Source: Promethearchaeota archaeon (GTDB taxonomy: Archaea > Asgardarchaeota > Lokiarchaeia > Sigyniarchaeales > SOKP01). From it: a stretch of DNA of 64,000 bases. The notes beneath the pieces were generated by a model, which saw only the letters and a list, made by a program, of their open reading frames with translations, had not been told where the DNA came from and searched no databases. Position 1 is the first letter of the stretch. Each line of letters opens with the position of its first letter. The DNA lies in NCBI GenBank assembly GCA_019058295.1, contig JAHPZI010000015.1:44679-108678 (forward strand), in the 5' to 3' direction. Both the position numbers and the translations under genes were made by a program. This document shows, piece after piece, positions 15 through 44,569 of this stretch.

Positions 15-3000
15 TTATTTAATTATTTTTGCTCCACATCGAGTACAGAAATTTTTGCATAACTTTAAATCTGCGCCACATATGGTGCAAAAATGAGGAG
101 ATTGTATTGGTTTACTTAGGGTTTGTGTCGACTGGGTCTCAGAGGGATATGTATGAAGTGTAGGTGGTAGTGTAGGGGATGTTATATCCCTTTCTGGCAA
201 TTTTCCTTTTTTCTTAACAATTTTAATAATTATAAAAGTTCCTGCAACTCCTGCTCCAATGAGAACTGCCGAAATCATAATTAGACTTACCATATCCATA
301 TCATCTCCGTCATCGTCTCCCCCTCCTCCACCTCCTCCTCCACCTCCACTTGGAGTTCTATCACTTCCAGTATCGGTTAATGATACTTTATAACCTAAAA
401 CTCTGATATCGTCTATTAACCATCCTCTATAATCATTGTCATATTCGTCCCATGTTTCAAAATAAAACATTAATTGAATTAGTCCCATATCAATTAAATC
501 GCTTATATCAATAACCAAATTTTCCCATGGATCAATATTACTCCAATTGAAATATCTCATATAATAATAACCAGTTTCAAAGGAATAAATATAGAGATAG
601 GAGGTATCTGAGAATTGATCAGTTTCTCTCCAATGATAAAAATCTAAAAATACATATTCATAGCCAGATATGTTAAATGGAATACTTCTTATTTCTCCAT
701 ATACTGCATTTCCCGTATCATAATTTCCTGTTTCTTCATCTCCAAACCACATCGAATGCGTAGGAGAATGACATGGATAGGGCCATAAACTTCCAGTATC
801 AGTTAAGTGCCAAAGTCCCGAAATTAAGTCCCATTTTGAGAGATCATTCTCAAAATTATCTTCGAAAAGAATATCAGGTCCTATTACTTTTGGTCCTAAA
901 AGTGGACCAAGAGAACTTGATCTTTCAGTATCAGAACAAGCAAACGAGTAACTATATGTTCCTACTTCAGGTAAAGTGATACTATAAATGTATAAACATC
1001 CATCCATGTAATTGTTATCCAAAGGATCTTGTTTAATCATCAAGAATATCATATGATTTATTGTTAGGGTCACATATTCAGCTAGATTATTATCTGCATC
1101 TGTGTAAATTACAGAAAATTCAAAATAAGTAAAGTTTAGATAACCAATATCAGGATCAACATTACCACTGGTCAAGACAGGAGCATTAATATTACCTCCA
1201 TCAAAAACCGATGGACCAATAATAAGCTTGGTTGTATTAGTAAAGAGCCCATCAAAACAATAAAAGAAATACTCATAAATTCCAGGCTGTAAATAAATCA
1301 ATGATTGATACATACACCCATCTGTATAATCATCGTCTAGTAGATTTTGTTTTTCCATTGGAAATGCTGTTCCATTAATTACAACATTGATACCATAAGG
1401 TCGATTATTGTCTTGATCTGTATATAACACACTAAAGGCAAATTCTGTGGTTTGAAATCCTGATGATGGAGAAAGAAATTCATCTGTTAATTTTGGAGCA
1501 TAATCATTTATAATAATATCAAATTCAATATTAGAATCTACGAATGTAAAAGTGTAATCATTAAGATATCCCATAATATCTTCCCAGTAAAATGTTCCAT
1601 CTAAAAGAATTCCTGTGCTTTTTTCATACCAAGCAATTCCAGGGGTTTCCAAATCTTCAAGTACCCAAACCTCAACAGGTCCCACTCCAGGCAGATTATA
1701 TAATAGTTCACTTGTTATTTGGAAATCATGGTCACCAATACCATCAACAGTTATCGGGATTATATCATTGAGCTCAACATCTGTATGAATCCAAGCAGGC
1801 GTATGTGATCCATCAACGAAAGCAAGAGAGCCATAACAATCTTCGATAATTCTCGTCTGTTTATCAATATCCCAGTAACTTTTACCATAAAAATCTTTCT
1901 CCCATTCTACATTGTAAATTTCACCTGATTCATGAGAATATCTGAAACTTGAAGGAACATCTGGTTGACCCCAAATGCTGAATAAATGGTTAATATAAAG
2001 ACCATCGAATATTCCAATCATTTTTTCCACAGTTGGTCCAGAATAAGGTCCATCGATATCAGTAGACTTGCCATCAAAACAGTTGAAAATGTAACTAAAA
2101 GTTCCGATTTCATTGAAGATAATATCATATATATAAATACAGCCATCCATGTAATTATTATCCATATAATCTAGTTTTACCATAGGATAAGTCACTGAAT
2201 TTATCGTTACATTGATATCCTTTGGAGCGTTATTGTCTGCATCTGTATATATTACTGAGTATCGAAAAACCGTAAGACCTTTATAACCATTATTGGGATT
2301 AACTTCTCCATTACTCAGTAAAGGAGGATTATCATTACTTTTTTCTAAAACTGTTAGATCGGTATATTTCTTAGTGTAATTAGAGTATAAATAATCTGTA
2401 CAATTGAATGAATACTCATAACTTCCCGGTTGTAAATATGTTGAAAATTGATAAATGCACCCATCAGTATAATCATCATCAAATTGATTTTGTTTTTGCA
2501 TTGGATAAACAGTGTCATTGATTATTAAATTGACATAAAAGGGAAAATTATTGTCTTGATCAGAATAATTAACTTTAAATGTAAACTCAGTCATTTGGTC
2601 TCCAGATGTGGGATCCAAATCAACATCAGTTAATTGAGGCTCATAATTATTCTCGAAACAAGTAAAATATATTGAGAAATCATCAGTCGTATCCGTCAAG
2701 CCCTGATAATTATTGTAAAACCGTGTATCAACGCCTAAATTTAAACCGCAAGTATAACCATAATAAGAGTCTATGTATGAAATATAATCATAATTAAAAA
2801 TTATTTCCCCTGATTCAAATAAAACTACTTGGAATGTTCCAACTCTCTCTCCATAATAATGATCCATGTCAACCCATGATACAACCCAAAAATCTTCAAA
2901 TGATTGAACATAAATCTCACCGCTTCCCCACTCAGGATCGAGATCCGCCCAATGAGGTGCAATTAAAAAGTGAGTGCTAGGATCTGCTGAAGGTATTGGT

Positions 3001-37915: not shown

Positions 37916-38500
37916 TTATTTTACTCTATCAAAAGCCCATTTGGCTTTTTCGCTTAATCCAAGGGCTTCATAAGATTTACCAATATATAAAAATGCGTCT
38001 GGAAAATCAAAATCTTCTTTTGTAAGTTTAAATAAATGACCAATAGCCATATCATATCGTCCTTTTAAATAATAAGTTTTTCCTCTTAAGAAAAGAATTT
38101 TATGTCTATTATCCTTAGTTAAATCTTGACTATCAAATATATTTAACTTTTCGAGAGCTTTATCATAGTCTTGTTTCTCTAGAAGATTGGTAATCGCATC
38201 AACTTGTTTTAAAAACACGATTTTTTCAGCAACTTGCTTAATCCTTGCTCTTCTCTGCTCTAACAACTTTTCTTCAAGAGATATATTTTTCTCTTTATCT
38301 TTTTGTTCTAAATAAGTTTTAATTTTTGCCATTATATATGAATCATAATCTCTATCACATAATGGACATTTTGGAGAGTGAAGTGACCACTCTGCTAGAC
38401 AAGATTCGTGAACAGGATGCCCATTTGGACAACTGTATGACTTTTCAACATCTTTACCATCATCTCCTATATCCATATGGCAAATCAAACAAGAAGGCAT
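37916..38500 (-). CDS. RING-H2 finger + coiled-coil + TPR protein (putative E3 ligase)
   Basis: C4-x2-C7-x16-C24-x3-H28-x2-H31-x2-C34-x3-W-x6-C45-P-x-C48. C-terminal TPRs (FLRGKTYY..., AFLYIGKSYEALG). Confidence 0.85.
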   Translation of the reverse strand: MPSCLICHMDIGDDGKDVEKSYSCPNGHPVHESCLAEWSLHSPKCPLCDRDYDSYIMAKIKTYLEQKDKEKNISLEEKLLEQRRARIKQVAEKIVFLKQVDAITNLLEKQDYDKALEKLNIFDSQDLTKDNRHKILFLRGKTYYLKGRYDMAIGHLFKLTKEDFDFPDAFLYIGKSYEALGLSEKAKWAFDRVK

Positions 38501-38683: not shown

Positions 38684-40243
38684 ATGTCGTTCAATATAAC
38701 AAAATCATTTAATATTCTTTTTAAAAATTTCTTGGAAATAAACAGTGATGTAGTTGCATTAATAGTCTCTGATAAAGGAGGTCTCATTGTTGCGGGGGAA
38801 ACATCATCAGATGTTAATATGGAAATTATTTCAGTTTTAACTGCGATTGTGAATCCAATTTTAGACAGAATTCGCAATGAATTCGCTTTTAAAAAATTTG
38901 GAACTGCTTCTTTCGACACAGATGAATATCGGCTTTTATTTATTTCTGTTGATGAAAACATAACTTTAAGCGTAGTATTAACCACGTTAGCCTCTGTCGA
39001 TAAAGTTTCACCTTATGCTTACTTCCTTGCAGAGAAAACTGCGCAGATTGTCAATGCCGAAGAGGGTGATGTTATTCAGCTTGAGATTCCTAATTTTGAA
39101 TATGAAGGAGAAACAGTTGAAAGAATGAAAGACCAGATTTATCAATTGAGATTAGAAACTGGTGGAACGTATCGTTTCAAATTTATTATTATTGGGGATC
39201 ATTATGTTGGAAAGACTTCCATCGTGCGACGCTACGTTGATAGAAGGTTCTCTAAAGATTACCGGGCGACAATAGGTATAAATATAATCACACATTCGTT
39301 TGATTTTTTTGAGAATGAAATAAATTTATCTTTATGGGATATAGGAGCACAACAGTATTTTAAACGATTTAGGCGTACATATTATATGGGTTCACAAGCT
39401 GCTTTTATCGTTTTTGACTTAACTAACCGCGAAACTTTTGAGAATGTAAAAATTTGGTTCGATGAATTAATTAATTTTTTAGGGAAAATAGATCTTCCAA
39501 TTGTTATTGTAGGAAATAAAACTGATTTGAAAGAAAAGAGAGAAATTAGTTATGAAGAAGGCGTTTCCTTAGTACCAGAATTAGCTGAAAAAGGAGTATC
39601 TAAAATTTCTTATATCGAAACGAGCGCATTGACGGGAGAAAATATTAATGATGCATTTAGTTTAATATCATATCATTACATAGTGAAAAGTAAAGAAAAA
39701 GAAGAAGAATTATTAAGAAAGAGTTTAGAGGACGGGATTAACTGCATTTTAACAGATAGAGAGAAATTAACACTTACATTTATCACGGAAAAAGCTTTTT
39801 GGAATCCCGGCTTACAAATCATGTCTGAATTGATTGAGTTAGGAAAATATGTAAAAAAAAAGGATACAAAAGAAGAAAAGATCTTTGAATATCCAAACGG
39901 TTTAATTCTAAAAAGTCATCTCACTAATAATTTTGATTTATCTGATTCCGATGGCGCCTTTTGCATATTTGATGCGCGCGGCAAAGAGCATATTGATCCA
40001 AAGTGGAAGGAAACATTGATTGAAATCATTGAAAGTATACAAGAAAATAAAGTTGTATTAATAGGTGTAAGAGTGGAACCTGAAAAATTAGACTGGTCAG
40101 TTTTAATGGAAGAATTTGACGTTAACGAGCAGTTGGAGAGAAAGATGGTATCGCTCTTATTCTTTAAAATTGGGGTTGAATATCGCTTAGAAATTTACGA
40201 TCAACTAGAAGTCATGCTAAATACTATTAAAACTATATCTTAA
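38684..40243 (+). CDS. Roadblock/LC7 domain + Rab-like small GTPase fusion with C-terminal degenerate G-domain-like region
   Basis: N-terminal ALIVSDKGGLIVA roadblock pattern. G1 GDHYVGKTS, G2 YRATIG, G3 WDIGAQ, YY.GS..AFIVFD, G4 GNKTD, G5 ETSA. Confidence 0.88.
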   Translation: MSFNITKSFNILFKNFLEINSDVVALIVSDKGGLIVAGETSSDVNMEIISVLTAIVNPILDRIRNEFAFKKFGTASFDTDEYRLLFISVDENITLSVVLTTLASVDKVSPYAYFLAEKTAQIVNAEEGDVIQLEIPNFEYEGETVERMKDQIYQLRLETGGTYRFKFIIIGDHYVGKTSIVRRYVDRRFSKDYRATIGINIITHSFDFFENEINLSLWDIGAQQYFKRFRRTYYMGSQAAFIVFDLTNRETFENVKIWFDELINFLGKIDLPIVIVGNKTDLKEKREISYEEGVSLVPELAEKGVSKISYIETSALTGENINDAFSLISYHYIVKSKEKEEELLRKSLEDGINCILTDREKLTLTFITEKAFWNPGLQIMSELIELGKYVKKKDTKEEKIFEYPNGLILKSHLTNNFDLSDSDGAFCIFDARGKEHIDPKWKETLIEIIESIQENKVVLIGVRVEPEKLDWSVLMEEFDVNEQLERKMVSLLFFKIGVEYRLEIYDQLEVMLNTIKTIS

Positions 40244-41768: not shown

Positions 41769-43196
41769 TTATTTGGTTCTCTTAATATTCATTATTTTAG
41801 TCTTCTTTTTTAACATTAAAACCCCTTGTACGGCTTCTTCAATGCTATGAAATACTGGAATATTTGAAAGCTCTAAAGATTCAATTATAGATCCATATTT
41901 AGGTATATAAGGTATGAAGCATAGAACTGGTTTTTTTGATATTGTCACTGTATTAGCAATTCGTCGTCCTATCTGAAAGGTTATAGACGGAGTATAGGGT
42001 AGAATTAAAATAATAATGCATTCAACCCTATCTATTTTTGAGAGATATTTAATTATATTCTCTAAATCTTCATCTCTAGCCGATCCTGTAAGATCAATTG
42101 GGTTTTCAAATGTTGCTATCCCTCGTGCGACAGGATTTACCAAATTCCTCATTTCAAGTTTTTCTTCTTGAGTGAAATCCACCGCCGTTAAGCCATAGTT
42201 TTTTAATAAATCTGCACAAATAACTCCATGACCGCCCGATAGAGATAGTATAGCAACTTTACCCTCCATAACGAGATTAGGGTCGAATGGCTTTTTCTTA
42301 TGAGATAAAATGTCTAATAACTTTAAATCTGTCAACAATTCGAGTTCTGTAAGTGGTTGTATTATTAAATATTGCTCTAATGCTGCCTGAAGTATTTTTT
42401 CATTGCCTGAAAGACTAGCAGTATGAGATTGAGTTGCTTTTTTGCCTTTTTCAGTCATCCCTCCAAAATATACAATTACATCATTATCAGATTCTTTAGC
42501 TAATTGGAGAAATTTTCTGCTCTTTGAGGGTTTAAACGCCTCTAAATAAAATGCAATATTAGAGGTGTCTTTATCTTTAGTGCTAAAATATTCTAAAAGC
42601 ATTGTTTCATCTACAACTGCTCGATTTCCTATTGAAACTGCTGTGGAAACTCCAATATTAATTTGATTAAATTTATGAAAGAATTGATCTACTAAAACTC
42701 CACCTGACTGACTAATCAATGCGACGGACCCCTTTGGAGGTCGTGTGATTCGCTCTGTAGGCATAAAAATTGTGTCCAACAAGGGGGGTGAATATACACC
42801 TATACAATTGGGACCTAGAACTGCGATATCATTCTCTACTGCTATTTTTATCAGCTTTTCTTGATATTTTTTTCCTTCTCCTCCTATTTCAGCAAAACCA
42901 CCGCTTATGATTATGCACCCTGGAATATTATATTCCGCACATTGTTCTACATATTCTAAAGTAGCTTTTGCAGGTATTGCAAGTACCATAAGTTCCGGAA
43001 CTTTTGGTAAATCCTCTAAACTGGTAAATAGCTCTACACCTTCAATTTCGCCCCCTCCCAGATGAATCCCAAACACTTCAACTTGCATCTCAAATACATT
43101 CTTTATAAAAATGATCCTTCCTGGACTTAATGGATTGGTTTTACTAATACCTACTACTACCATACTCTTTGGTTTAAAAAGTTTCTCTAAATCCAT
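41769..43196 (-). CDS. Acyl-CoA synthetase (ADP-forming) alpha subunit
   Basis: LFKPKSMVVVG, IISGGFAE, LGPNCIG, ISQSGG, SIGN, SHTASLSG (phospho-His), NPIDLTG. No ATP-grasp beta domain fused or adjacent. Confidence 0.88.
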   Translation of the reverse strand: MDLEKLFKPKSMVVVGISKTNPLSPGRIIFIKNVFEMQVEVFGIHLGGGEIEGVELFTSLEDLPKVPELMVLAIPAKATLEYVEQCAEYNIPGCIIISGGFAEIGGEGKKYQEKLIKIAVENDIAVLGPNCIGVYSPPLLDTIFMPTERITRPPKGSVALISQSGGVLVDQFFHKFNQINIGVSTAVSIGNRAVVDETMLLEYFSTKDKDTSNIAFYLEAFKPSKSRKFLQLAKESDNDVIVYFGGMTEKGKKATQSHTASLSGNEKILQAALEQYLIIQPLTELELLTDLKLLDILSHKKKPFDPNLVMEGKVAILSLSGGHGVICADLLKNYGLTAVDFTQEEKLEMRNLVNPVARGIATFENPIDLTGSARDEDLENIIKYLSKIDRVECIIILILPYTPSITFQIGRRIANTVTISKKPVLCFIPYIPKYGSIIESLELSNIPVFHSIEEAVQGVLMLKKKTKIMNIKRTK

Positions 43197-43376
43197 GGCT
43201 TTTCAGTAATTCTCTATGATTATTTTTTATAATTTTCCTTCTTAATAATTTTCAAGATCTTGTATATAATTCATTTTAAATTAATATTTTATAACTATTA
43301 GAATTTTAAGTGTAAAAATATAGATTAATTTAATAAATAGTATCAATCAAAAATAAATAATTGAGAAGAAGCGGAA

Positions 43377-43691
43377 ATGTCTACATATTTGATTAGTCCA
43401 GAATTTGTGTTATTCATACGAATTGTATCTATACTCGGATTCATATTTTTAGGATCATATACTTTTTATTCATACTTAAAAATCAAGAATTTAACGCTAT
43501 TATTTATTTCCTTGGCGTTTTTCGTTATTGCGTTTTCAATAATATTAAGAGTTACAGTTATTCCAATAGCAGAAACAGCATATGGCGAGACAGAACTCAT
43601 AGAAGCATTATTTGAAGGAATCCAATTTATAGCAGCTTTTTTCTTTTATGCTGGTTTAAGATTAATCCAACGTAAAAAGGAGGGAGAATAA
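43377..43691 (+). CDS. Small 3-TM membrane protein A
   Basis: Three hydrophobic helices; pattern Y.K.KN..LLF..LAF. Confidence 0.78.
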   Translation: MSTYLISPEFVLFIRIVSILGFIFLGSYTFYSYLKIKNLTLLFISLAFFVIAFSIILRVTVIPIAETAYGETELIEALFEGIQFIAAFFFYAGLRLIQRKKEGE

Positions 43692-43693
43692 TA

Positions 43694-43996
43694 ATGGTGC
43701 TAGAATTAACTCATTTGATAGAATATGGTGTTGAAATAGGCTATGGGATTATTTATTTGATTTTAGCAATATCAACTTTTCTAAAATATAAAAAAACTGA
43801 TAATAAGCTAGCATTATATTTTTTCGCTGCATTTATTTGCTTGGCATTTTCAGGATTTTATGGAGGAATAGCGGGGATTTTAAATAAATCGGGATTCGAG
43901 ATGATACCTATTCTTGGCGATAAGATTTTAGAGATTTATGAAGGAGTAGCACTCGTTGCATTAATATTTTTTATAATCGGATTAATAAAAATCTAA
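43694..43996 (+). CDS. Small 3-TM membrane protein B (paralog-like to A)
   Basis: Three hydrophobic helices; pattern YKKT.NKLALYF..AF. Starts 2 nt after the stop of A; GGAG/GAGG upstream. Confidence 0.78.
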   Translation: MVLELTHLIEYGVEIGYGIIYLILAISTFLKYKKTDNKLALYFFAAFICLAFSGFYGGIAGILNKSGFEMIPILGDKILEIYEGVALVALIFFIIGLIKI

Positions 43997-43998
43997 TC

Positions 43999-44463
43999 TT
44001 GGAAAATGAAGATAAGATGGCAGAAGAGTTATGGATAATCGATACTGGGGGTATATGTTTTTTTCATAGATGGATTAATAAAGAAACCATACTAGAAAGC
44101 ATTGAAAAAAAAATTCAAATAAAAGATCAACTATTCAGCGGTCTATTATCAGGAATATTAACTTTTACATCGAAAGTCACATCAGATAAGATCGAAAAAA
44201 TTCAAATGTCTGAAGGGAAGTTCTTATTTTTTACGAGTAAAAATTTAATCTTTATTGTTAGAGCAAAAATTAAATCATCAGATAACAAATTAAAAAAAAA
44301 AATTAAATTATTAGAGGATTTATTCCTAAAAAAATTTGAAAAGAAATTAGATAATTTTAATGGCGAAGTCTCATCATTTAAAATTTTTGAAGAAGATTTG
44401 GATGAGATTTTTAATAAAATGACAAAAGTTGAGAAATGGGGTAAAGGAATTTCAAATTTATAA
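43999..44463 (+). CDS. Stand-alone longin-like domain protein
   Basis: LWIIDTGGICFFHR...QLFSGLLSGILTF...IEKIQM...LIFIV...LF.KKF...FNGEVSSF..F, the pattern of Asgard longin (sedlin/sigma-adaptin-like) domains. Start TTG 43999 or ATG 44017. Confidence 0.75.
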   Translation: MENEDKMAEELWIIDTGGICFFHRWINKETILESIEKKIQIKDQLFSGLLSGILTFTSKVTSDKIEKIQMSEGKFLFFTSKNLIFIVRAKIKSSDNKLKKKIKLLEDLFLKKFEKKLDNFNGEVSSFKIFEEDLDEIFNKMTKVEKWGKGISNL

Positions 44464-44569
44464 GTCGATTTTATCCACTTTATTAATTAAATAATTACTT
44501 TTAATAATATTTTTTAATAGATTTTCTATAATCGTAGGTTAGAATAAAGACTTTGGTGGGTGATTTAAA

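What the first reader, a model, noticed from the sequence alone, without database searches (positions are those of the whole stretch)
43377..44463. 3TM + 3TM + longin mini-operon: possible split membrane receptor wired to a small-GTPase adaptor
Seen: two ~100-aa 3-TM proteins share a post-TM1 motif (Y.K.KN..LLF..AF versus YKKT.NKLALYF..AF) and are followed by a stand-alone longin-like protein; both gaps are 2 nt. Established: longin domains serve as GTPase platforms or GEF subunits in eukaryotic trafficking (TRAPP, Mon1-Ccz1) and are expanded in Asgard archaea. Inference: a heterodimeric 6-TM sensor signals through a soluble longin rather than a kinase or HTH output, possibly to a GTPase like the roadblock-Rab 3 kb away.
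Basis: partly seen in the sequence, partly recalled or inferred. Interest (0 to 1): 0.7.

Follow-up and report, generated by a model that had tools for sequence, protein, structure and literature searches.

The report
Membrane protein pair with longin partner
A few Lokiarchaeia (Asgard archaea) keep a small operon of two related three-helix membrane proteins and a soluble longin-fold protein. It is an untested candidate for how these archaea dock eukaryote-like GTPase regulators onto a membrane.

Summary
Three same-strand genes encode A (104 aa, 3 TM), B (100 aa, 3 TM, a paralog of A) and C. C most likely starts at ATG 44017 (148 aa), so the B-C gap is 20 nt, not 2.

C is a real longin. Its AlphaFold topology is beta-beta-alpha-beta-beta-beta-alpha-alpha, and its best PDB matches are AP sigma, zeta-COP, Mon1/Ccz1, HPS1 and Bet5. 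Two orthologs pass Pfam longin thresholds.

A and B match no known transporter. They are remote relatives of the uncharacterised DUF5985 family. Only 12 clusters were found among 1.84 billion proteins, and none is a fused form.

Linkage is conserved. A-B-C recurs in about 10 loci with unrelated flanks. In two other lineages the same A-B pair follows an SMCR8/folliculin-like longin protein instead.

In this genome, 4 of 13 other stand-alone longins follow a multi-TM gene, and five proteins fuse TM domains (one an MFS transporter) to the same longin family.

Binding of C to A+B got only weak support (0.55, best control 0.00). The proposed link to the GTPase at 38684 is not conserved, and no evidence supports a "sensor" role.

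Best reading (about 0.5): a membrane docking or receptor pair for longin-type GTPase regulators. This scan has noted other membrane-linked Asgard longins on other DNA, but none with a 3-TM pair.

The parts
43197..43376 (+). AT-rich intergenic region upstream of A; presumed promoter of the operon, shared divergently with the CoA-ligase-like gene at 41769-43196 (-)
   Evidence: Sequence read; ORF map. No promoter was tested, because the available scan does not cover archaeal promoters.
43377..43691 (+). Gene A: 104-aa membrane protein with 3 TM helices. Predicted N-terminus outside and C-terminus inside. Cytoplasmic loop 1 (Y-x-K-x-K-N) and a basic C-terminal tail.
   Evidence: K+R per region in orthologs: N-terminus 0, loop 1 2.7, loop 2 0.2, C-terminus 3.3. 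dN/dS 0.10-0.28.
43679..43684 (+). GGAGGG Shine-Dalgarno-like motif inside the 3' end of A, 9 nt before B's ATG
   Evidence: Sequence. It is consistent with coupled translation within one transcript (inference).
43694..43996 (+). Gene B: 100-aa paralog of A with 3 TM helices, an invariant S-G-x-Y-G-G motif in TM2 and K-I-x-E-I-Y before TM3. Same predicted topology as A.
   Evidence: model pLDDT 87.6. K+R: N-terminus 0, loop 1 4.0. A B-type ortholog, P0018, passes the Pfam DUF5985 threshold.
44017..44463 (+). Gene C: 148-aa soluble stand-alone longin-fold protein (alternative start TTG 43999, giving 154 aa)
   Evidence: Pfam Fuz_longin_1 E 1.6e-4, 22.3 bits, below the cut-off of 26.1. Orthologs P0004 (27.6) and P0020 (Sybindin 26.7 against cut-off 25) pass. 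AlphaFold pLDDT 78 with longin topology. Foldseek top hits are longin proteins.
44464..44530 (+). T-rich stretch after C's stop codon (TTTT at 44469-44472, TTTTTT at 44510-44515); a possible archaeal oligo-T terminator, followed by a 139-nt gap before the AOR gene
   Evidence: Sequence. Inference only.

Best explanation
A and B are paralogous small polytopic membrane proteins. They most likely pair into a six-helix heterodimer with both N-termini outside and both C-termini inside. Their conserved basic cytoplasmic loop 1 and C-terminal tails would form a docking surface for a soluble longin-fold protein (C). This places a longin platform, the kind of module eukaryotes use as GEF, GAP or scaffold for Rab/Arf/Rag GTPases, on the cell membrane. 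In two other lineages the same membrane pair is encoded with an SMCR8/folliculin-like longin-DENN-type protein instead of C, so the pair looks like a docking module for interchangeable longin-type regulators. Shown: the gene structure, the paralogy, the longin fold, the conserved linkage and the co-occurrence. Inferred: the heterodimer, the physical binding of C, and any GTPase output. The GTPase partner is unknown.
For: Longin fold of C. A/B are paralogs with the same positive-inside topology.

A-B-C recurs with unrelated flanks in L009, L010, L017, L018, L019, L020, L021, L041-43 and L044. In L022 a single A/B hybrid gene precedes C.

Co-occurrence in 151 genomes of the class: C orthologs (155 bits or more; next best hit 78 bits) occur in 6 genomes. 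Strong A/B matches occur in 5 genomes, all among those 6.

The same A-B pair lies directly downstream of a 364-365-aa protein in two lineages whose copies are 35% identical (L015/L016 and L040/L047). This protein has a precomputed Pfam SMCR8_C hit, protein-language-model similarity of 0.93 to C9orf72/folliculin clusters, an E-G-P-T-P motif like the 'GP motif' of GAP longins (PMC12290439), and homologs with a Folliculin-type N-terminus.

In the window's own genome there are 39 longin paralogs. Four of the 13 other stand-alone ones have a same-strand upstream gene with 3 or more TM helices within 300 nt, against a 7.2% background. Five proteins fuse TM domains to this longin family, one of them an MFS transporter.

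Complex prediction of C against A+B gave weak support: score 0.55, best of 3 controls 0.00. The pass mark was reached by 58 of 80 solved complexes and 2 of 110 mismatched pairs. However, scores of 0.60 or under were seen in only 7 of those 80 and in both mismatches that passed. Runs agree in at least 97% of contacts, and the partner's pLDDT is at least 64.
Against: There is no experimental or expression evidence. The only binding prediction is in the 'weak' band, which the tool rates as more often wrong than right without a good prior. The A-B heterodimer itself was not scored. One genome (G074, 94% complete) has a C-like ortholog with no A/B found. No small-GTPase gene is consistently near the operon, so the GTPase output rests on analogy with eukaryotic and bacterial longin/roadblock proteins. 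Longins belong to a wider PAS/GAF-like fold class and can have roles unrelated to GTPases (PMC4917890). The enrichment of TM neighbours is post hoc and rests on small numbers.
Confidence: 0.5

Rival explanations
1. A/B form a small heterodimeric transporter or channel for an ion or small solute, and C is its cytoplasmic regulatory or gating subunit with no GTPase involved. A hybrid of this with the best explanation is a 'transceptor', in which transport state controls recruitment of the longin.
For: Conserved polar and charged residues lie at or near the membrane: S54, E76, E80 and Q83 in A, and S-G-x-Y-G-G, K77 and E80 in B. Other longins of the same family in this genome are fused to an MFS transporter or follow a ZIP-like transporter. 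Small paired membrane proteins are a common transporter design (general knowledge).
Against: No transporter family matched A/B. The only Pfam hits are domains of unknown function plus a weak TauE hit (18 bits against a cut-off of 32.6). No specific solved fold matched. The same pair also combines with an SMCR8/folliculin-like protein, a class known only as GTPase regulators.
Confidence: 0.25
2. One reading: a six-TM sensor that signals through the longin to the roadblock-Rab GTPase encoded 3 kb upstream (38684-40243).
For: The GTPase gene is real (Pfam Ras E 1.9e-42) and lies nearby. One orthologous lineage (L041-43) has an Arf/Rag-like GTPase gene about 600 nt beyond C, after an opposite-strand gene.
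Against: Two opposite-strand genes separate the GTPase gene from the operon in the window. The flanks held for most of the other orthologous loci (about 0.5-5 kb, some cut by contig ends) show no GTPase gene. The outside-facing segments of A/B are only about 10-19 residues, with no ligand-binding domain. Published work on a cultured Lokiarchaeon notes that GTPase genes are generally not in operons with longin or roadblock genes (PMC10933270).
Confidence: 0.07
3. The three genes are neighbours with no shared function. For example, A/B could be structural membrane proteins and C an unrelated cytosolic longin.
For: There is no direct evidence of interaction. One genome has a C-like gene without A/B.
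Against: Order and spacing are conserved in about 10 loci with unrelated flanks. A and B overlap or are 2 nt apart, with an internal Shine-Dalgarno-like motif. Co-occurrence is near-strict in 151 genomes. The same pair is independently joined to another longin-type protein.
Confidence: 0.1

Closest known systems
Eukaryotic longin platforms: TRAPP Bet5/Trs23 (Sybindin family), Mon1-Ccz1, Fuzzy/Inturned, HPS1/HPS4, and AP sigma / zeta-COP
   Same: C has the same fold and topology. Foldseek hits to these reach E 1e-5 to 5e-4. The Pfam families Fuz_longin_1, Intu_longin_1 and Sybindin are the ones hit.
   Different: C is a single 148-aa domain. It is not a tri-longin protein and not part of a recognisable TRAPP gene set. 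Identity to solved longins is only 10-20%. No GTPase interaction is shown. Its gene partners are small polytopic membrane proteins, which none of these eukaryotic complexes has.
PQLC2 (PQ-loop amino-acid transporter) recruiting the C9orf72-SMCR8-WDR41 complex to lysosomes; SLC38A9 / LAMTOR1 with Ragulator-Rag
   Same: These are polytopic membrane proteins that act as a membrane receptor for longin- or roadblock-based GTPase regulators (PMC12290439). Here a 3+3-TM pair is encoded with a longin or with an SMCR8/folliculin-like protein.
   Different: A/B have no PQ motif and no Pfam PQ-loop or MtN3 hit, and no homology is claimed. In humans the contact is made through WDR41, which is not seen here. 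The resemblance is functional analogy only and is untested.
Asgard longin and roadblock proteins, including longin-GTPase fusions (Klinger 2016 as cited in PMC4917890; Tran 2024, PMC10933270)
   Same: C belongs to the expanded Lokiarchaeial longin family. There are 39 paralogs in this genome, compared with 41 reported for Lokiarchaeum. Some are fused to Arf/Ras-like GTPases.
   Different: The papers I read describe soluble longins and GTPase fusions. They state that GTPases are generally not in operons with longins, and they do not mention longins coupled to polytopic membrane proteins.
Pfam DUF5985 (with DUF7521 / DUF7471 / DUF6962): uncharacterised 3-TM proteins of about 90-100 aa from archaea and bacteria
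   Same: Size and three-helix architecture agree. B-type ortholog P0018 passes the DUF5985 cut-off over 9-83 of 86 positions, and 7 of 14 family members hit it. The B model matches a DUF5985 cluster model at TM 0.76/0.83.
   Different: The window's own A and B do not hit DUF5985 at E of 1 or below. The family has no known function and no papers in the library searched. Elsewhere in Asgard genomes the DUF5985-like module is the first three helices of 7-TM proteins, some next to or fused with Rce1-like proteases, not a tandem pair with a longin.

Membership tests
Longin domain superfamily (protein C) | Beta-beta-alpha-beta-beta-beta-alpha-alpha topology with no N-terminal helix (the N-terminal helix marks roadblock) and two C-terminal helices | tested here: met
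   AlphaFold2 model, pLDDT 78.2: strands 2-9 and 14-19, helix 37-54, strands 61-64, 67-74 and 77-83, helices 89-112 and 119-146, plus a low-confidence inserted helix 22-30.
Longin domain superfamily (protein C) | Profile match to a curated longin family above its threshold | tested here: inconclusive
   C itself scores 22.3 bits on Fuz_longin_1, below the cut-off of 26.1. Orthologs pass: P0004 scores 27.6, and P0020 scores 26.7 on Sybindin (cut-off 25). Own-genome paralogs score 28.4 and 27.8.
Longin domain superfamily (protein C) | Structural similarity to solved longin domains | tested here: met
   The Foldseek PDB top hits are AP2/AP3 sigma, zeta-COP, Mon1/Ccz1, HPS1 and Bet5, with probability 1.00 and TM 0.45-0.67. 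Roadblock proteins (LAMTOR2, MP1) also appear.
Longin domain superfamily (protein C) | Forms a dimeric platform that binds a small GTPase | not tested
This is compatible with a dimer but shows nothing.
Tri-longin GEF subunits (Mon1, Ccz1, Fuzzy, Inturned, HPS1, HPS4) | Three longin domains in one polypeptide | tested here: not met
   C is 148 aa with one longin domain.
Longin SNAREs (Sec22, Ykt6, VAMP7) | Longin domain followed by a SNARE motif and a C-terminal membrane anchor in the same protein | tested here: not met
   C has no hydrophobic segment (maximum 19-residue hydropathy 0.88) and no synaptobrevin/SNARE Pfam hit at E of 1 or below.
SemiSWEET / PQ-loop (proteins A, B) | Pfam MtN3_slv or PQ-loop profile match and a Pro-Gln motif in TM1 | tested here: not met
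   Neither family is hit at E of 1 or below by A, B or any of 14 family members. TM1 of A and of B contains no P-Q.
SemiSWEET / PQ-loop (proteins A, B) | Triple-helix-bundle fold like solved SemiSWEETs | tested here: inconclusive
   No SemiSWEET appears among the 50 best rows of Foldseek PDB (best E 0.59) or VIA-align wide. The top rows there are generic three-helix arrangements with Z of 11 or less, below the roughly 13 needed for helical bundles.
Pfam DUF5985 (proteins A, B) | Score above the curated cut-off of 27.3 bits | tested here: inconclusive
   The window's A and B have no hit. B-type ortholog P0018 scores 28.4; P0012 scores 24.0, P0014 19.0 and P0008 17.6. The B model matches a DUF5985 cluster model at TM 0.76/0.83.
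Folliculin / SMCR8 / C9orf72-type longin-DENN proteins (the 364-365-aa protein upstream of A-B in L015 and L040; not in the window) | N-terminal GAP-type longin with a GP motif, plus a DENN-like C-terminal part recognised by family profiles | tested here: inconclusive
   The L015 protein has E-G-P-T-P near its N-terminus, whereas the L040 protein has Q-S-P-M-P. L040 has a precomputed SMCR8_C hit. The local Pfam copy gives no hit. Atlas feature score is 0.93 to C9orf72/folliculin clusters. Homologs give C9orf72-like 14-15 bits (below threshold) and Folliculin 23.4 against a cut-off of 23.3 in a Rag-GTPase fusion. No structure was predicted.

The most novel reading that the evidence does not exclude
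A/B is an archaeal 'transceptor': a minimal six-helix membrane heterodimer that binds an ion or small solute and, depending on its state, recruits interchangeable longin modules to switch Rag/Arf-like GTPases. The modules would be a TRAPP/Mon1-like stand-alone longin in most lineages and an SMCR8/folliculin-like longin-DENN protein in others. This would be a prokaryotic forerunner of lysosomal nutrient sensing (PQLC2 with C9orf72-SMCR8; SLC38A9 with Ragulator-Rag), and part of a wider Lokiarchaeial habit of wiring transporters (MFS, ZIP-like) to longin domains.
Probability: 0.2. Interest if true: 0.85.

Novelty: new variant of a known kind. Interest (0 to 1): 0.6.

Why it matters
Asgard archaea carry dozens of longin, roadblock and small-GTPase genes. 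No one knows what they act on or how they reach a membrane. Published work notes that operons rarely help match GTPases with regulators (PMC10933270), and it asks whether gene context could reveal partners (PMC4917890).

This operon gives a small, matched and easily expressed set: two 100-aa membrane proteins plus a 148-aa longin. A sister arrangement uses an SMCR8/folliculin-like protein. Together they make the question "do archaeal longins dock on specific membrane proteins?" directly testable.

If binding holds, docking of longin regulators on polytopic membrane proteins predates eukaryotes. That would bear on the origin of the TRAPP, Mon1-Ccz1 and folliculin/C9orf72-type systems. If it fails, the operon remains a narrow lineage-specific curiosity.

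Tried and rejected
- **Expression:** no RNA holder was listed for the stretch. Only DNA runs from sediment metagenomes hold it, so I laid no reads.
- **Close fused forms of C:** a word-based search among proteins of 260-2000 aa found none. This is weak evidence.
- **Fused or longer forms of A/B:** the exhaustive profile search returned only proteins of 69-109 aa.
- **Homology between A/B and the membrane proteins next to other longin paralogs:** none was found. hhalign probabilities were 0.4% or less, BLASTP gave nothing convincing, and the A/B HMM hits nothing else in the genome.
- **A degraded longin gene after B in L015:** none found in any of the six frames.
- **SemiSWEET / PQ-loop:** not listed in either fold search. 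That absence is not proof that the fold differs.
- **Solved-structure match for the B model:** only generic three-helix bundles (BAR domains, MrpG, VTC, Orai), with Z of 11 or less.
- **NCBIfam:** no hit for C and only a chance-level one for B (vanZ_1, E 0.6), none for A.
- **P0007 (92 aa, L012):** a truncated C-like fragment. Only about 420 bases of the locus lie upstream of it, enough for one small gene at most, and they hold no A/B-like ORF, so it says little about linkage.
- **Literature:** no paper on DUF5985. I found no paper that describes longins coupled to polytopic membrane proteins in Asgard archaea. The Klinger 2016 paper itself is not in the library and was seen only through citations.

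Full report
**What is there.** The window comes from a Lokiarchaeia genome (3.2 Mb, 30 contigs, 79% complete). At 43377-44463 three same-strand ORFs follow a 180-nt AT-rich gap.
- A is 104 aa and B is 100 aa. Each has three hydrophobic helices (B model).
- They are paralogs: 32% identity over 76 aa, E 0.002.
Y33, A47, F48, S54, A86, F90 and G93 are nearly invariant across both paralog groups.
- The A-B gap is 2 nt, and a GGAGGG lies 9 nt before B's ATG.
- The third ORF is listed from TTG 43999. Every ortholog is 146-149 aa and starts M-x-E-E-L/F-W, which corresponds to ATG 44017. C is therefore most likely 148 aa, and the B-C gap 20 nt, as in orthologous loci (17-20 nt).
- All three genes are under purifying selection, with dN/dS 0.06-0.28.

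**Topology of A and B.** In orthologs of both proteins, basic residues concentrate in loop 1 and the C-terminal tail. They are absent from the N-terminus, and loop 2 is acidic. By the positive-inside rule both proteins have the N-terminus outside and the C-terminus inside. The shared post-TM1 motif is thus a cytoplasmic loop. Only about 10-19 residues face outward.

**Protein C is a longin.**
- Pfam gives Fuz_longin_1 at 22.3 bits, just under the cut-off of 26.1.
- Orthologs pass: P0004 scores 27.6 on Fuz_longin_1, and P0020 scores 26.7 on Sybindin (cut-off 25). Own-genome paralogs also pass.
- An AlphaFold2 model (13-row alignment, pLDDT 78) has beta-beta-alpha-beta-beta-beta-alpha-alpha topology without the N-terminal helix of roadblock proteins.
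- Foldseek's best PDB matches are AP sigma subunits, zeta-COP, Mon1/Ccz1, HPS1 and Bet5/Trs23. Roadblock proteins appear further down the list.
- C lacks the G-P motif of GAP-type longins (PMC12290439), so it resembles the platform/GEF-type longins more.

**Proteins A and B are nearly orphans.**
- An exhaustive profile search of 1.84 billion cluster representatives found only 12 relatives. All are 69-109 aa, and none is fused.
- A and B themselves hit nothing significant in Pfam or NCBIfam.
- Across 14 family members, 7 hit DUF5985. One B-type ortholog passes its cut-off over the full length. There are also weak hits to DUF7521, DUF6962, DUF6442 and MASE3.
- The B model (pLDDT 87.6) matches predicted DUF5985 and DUF7521 cluster models at TM about 0.8.
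- It matches no solved structure specifically. Foldseek's best E is 0.59, and VIA-align finds only generic three-helix bundles.
- No PQ-loop or SemiSWEET signal was seen.
- I read A and B as remote members of an uncharacterised family of small 3-TM proteins.

**The linkage is conserved.**
- A-B-C in this order occurs in L009, L010, L017, L018, L019, L020, L021, L041-43 and L044. The flanking genes are unrelated: PFOR, MFS, a glycosidase-like gene, an M28 peptidase, PhzF, CBS/RsmB and others.
- L009 has a second C copy upstream of A.
- In L022 a single 91-aa hybrid (TM1 of A joined to TM2-3 of B) precedes C.
- In 151 sampled genomes of the class, C orthologs stand out clearly: 155-240 bits, with the next best hit at 78 bits. 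They occur in 6 genomes. Strong A/B matches occur in 5 genomes, all among those 6. The exception, G074, has the most divergent C and no A/B.
- The module is therefore real but patchy. For example, it was found in 3 of the 8 sampled genomes of the window's genus.

**A second arrangement.** In two lineages whose copies are 35% identical (L015/L016 and L040/L047), there is no C. Instead A-B lies directly downstream of a 364-365-aa protein. The evidence on this protein is as follows:
- a precomputed SMCR8_C Pfam hit;
- protein-language-model similarity of 0.93 to C9orf72 and folliculin clusters;
- an E-G-P-T-P motif in L015 like the GP motif of GAP longins (PMC12290439);
- homologs that include Folliculin-type longin fusions to Rag-like GTPases.

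I did not fold it, so this identification is probable, not proven. The same membrane pair thus keeps company with two different longin-type proteins. This is the strongest context argument that A/B and longins act together.

**The theme recurs in this genome.** An HMM of the C family finds 39 paralogs, in line with the 41 reported for Lokiarchaeum (PMC4917890).
- Of the 13 other stand-alone paralogs, 4 follow a same-strand gene with 3 or more TM helices within 300 nt. The genome-wide rate is 7.2%. The binomial p of about 0.015 is post hoc and rests on crude gene and TM calling.
- The upstream membrane proteins are unrelated to A/B and to each other. One is ZIP-like.
- Five proteins fuse TM domains to this longin family:
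  - an MFS transporter with a C-terminal longin;
  - three 6-7-TM proteins with a C-terminal longin;
  - one protein with an N-terminal longin and four TM helices.
- Homologs of the SMCR8-like protein in other genomes sit beside a conserved 6-TM protein.

**Binding test.** One complex prediction (A, B and C, each with its own alignment; C scored) gave weak support.
- The score was 0.55 and the best of 3 controls was 0.00.
- The pass mark was reached by 58 of 80 solved complexes and 2 of 110 mismatches. Scores of 0.60 or under were seen in only 7 of those 80 and in both passing mismatches.
- The runs agree in at least 97% of contacts, and the partner's pLDDT is at least 64.
- This adds little on its own. 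The A-B contact was not scored.

**The GTPase link.** The gene at 38684 encodes a genuine Ras-family GTPase. Two opposite-strand genes separate it from the operon. Most orthologous loci show no GTPase gene in the flanks held (about 0.5-5 kb, some cut by contig ends). Only L041-43 has an Arf/Rag-like GTPase nearby, beyond an opposite-strand gene. The proposed partner is therefore unsupported.

**Reading.**
- *Most likely (about 0.5):* A and B form a six-helix membrane heterodimer. Its cytoplasmic loop 1 and C-terminal tails dock a longin-type regulator, either C or the SMCR8-like protein. This tethers a GTPase platform to the membrane.
- *Main rival (about 0.25):* A/B is a small transporter or channel with C as its regulatory subunit. 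The two merge in a transceptor model, for which human PQLC2 with C9orf72-SMCR8-WDR41 is the closest analogy (PMC12290439). No homology is claimed.
- "Sensor" is not excluded, but nothing supports it.

**Novelty.** Asgard longins and longin-GTPase fusions are known. In the papers I could search I found no description of longins coupled to polytopic membrane proteins.

This scan has noted other membrane-linked longins on other DNA: giant surface proteins with longin adaptors, and single-pass proteins with cytosolic longin tails. Those notes are unverified, and a later check priced the bold reading of one of them at 12/100. I therefore treat the general theme as recurrent within this scan, and the mechanistic claim as open.

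This case is a new variant: a minimal 3+3-TM pair with interchangeable longin partners. It is narrow in distribution and easy to test at the bench.

Noticed in passing
G000 contig C27:30250-31902 (locus L056; outside the window): A 550-aa MFS transporter (Pfam MFS_1, E 8e-15) carries a C-terminal longin domain of the same family as C (family HMM domain E 1.4e-11, residues 415-548). A transporter-longin fusion recalls eukaryotic transceptors such as SLC38A9.
   Followed up: partly
G000 C17:93852-94931 (L058), C9:19181-20269 (L059), C28:20202-21347 (L060), C21:177192-178016 (L057): Three 6-7-TM proteins have a C-terminal longin domain, and one protein has an N-terminal longin followed by four TM helices. 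The TM parts have no Pfam family.
   Followed up: partly
L022 (G012:C128), ORF 1507-1782 (-): A single 91-aa gene looks like TM1 of A joined to TM2-TM3 of B, followed by a C ortholog. It could be a deletion between the paralogs, which would imply a homodimeric version, or an assembly artefact.
   Followed up: no
L030, L031, L032 (genomes G010, G012, G004): Homologs of the SMCR8/folliculin-like protein (316-382 aa; L031 has a C-family longin N-terminus) are each followed, with overlap or no gap, by a conserved 266-310-aa protein of about 6 TM helices with no Pfam family. This is another membrane-protein/longin-DENN pairing.
   Followed up: partly
L046, L048, L049 (other Asgard genomes): A DUF5985-like three-helix module forms the N-terminus of 228-aa 7-TM proteins that sit next to an Rce1-like CAAX-protease-family gene. 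In L048 the module is fused to it (570 aa).
   Followed up: no
L034, L037, L038, L041:5667-7028: Proteins of 453-503 aa combine an N-terminal region (a Folliculin-type longin in L034 and L038) with a Gtr1/RagA- and Arf-like GTPase domain. This is a GAP-type longin fused to a Rag-like GTPase.
   Followed up: no
window 37916-38500 (-): A RING-H2 zinc finger (zf-RING_2, 28.7 bits, above its cut-off) plus a TPR protein lies head-to-head with the Ras-family GTPase gene at 38684.
   Followed up: no
L009:3603-4049 (+): A second copy of the C longin (73% identical to the downstream copy) lies 327 nt upstream of A, so A-B is flanked by two C paralogs in that lineage.
   Followed up: partly
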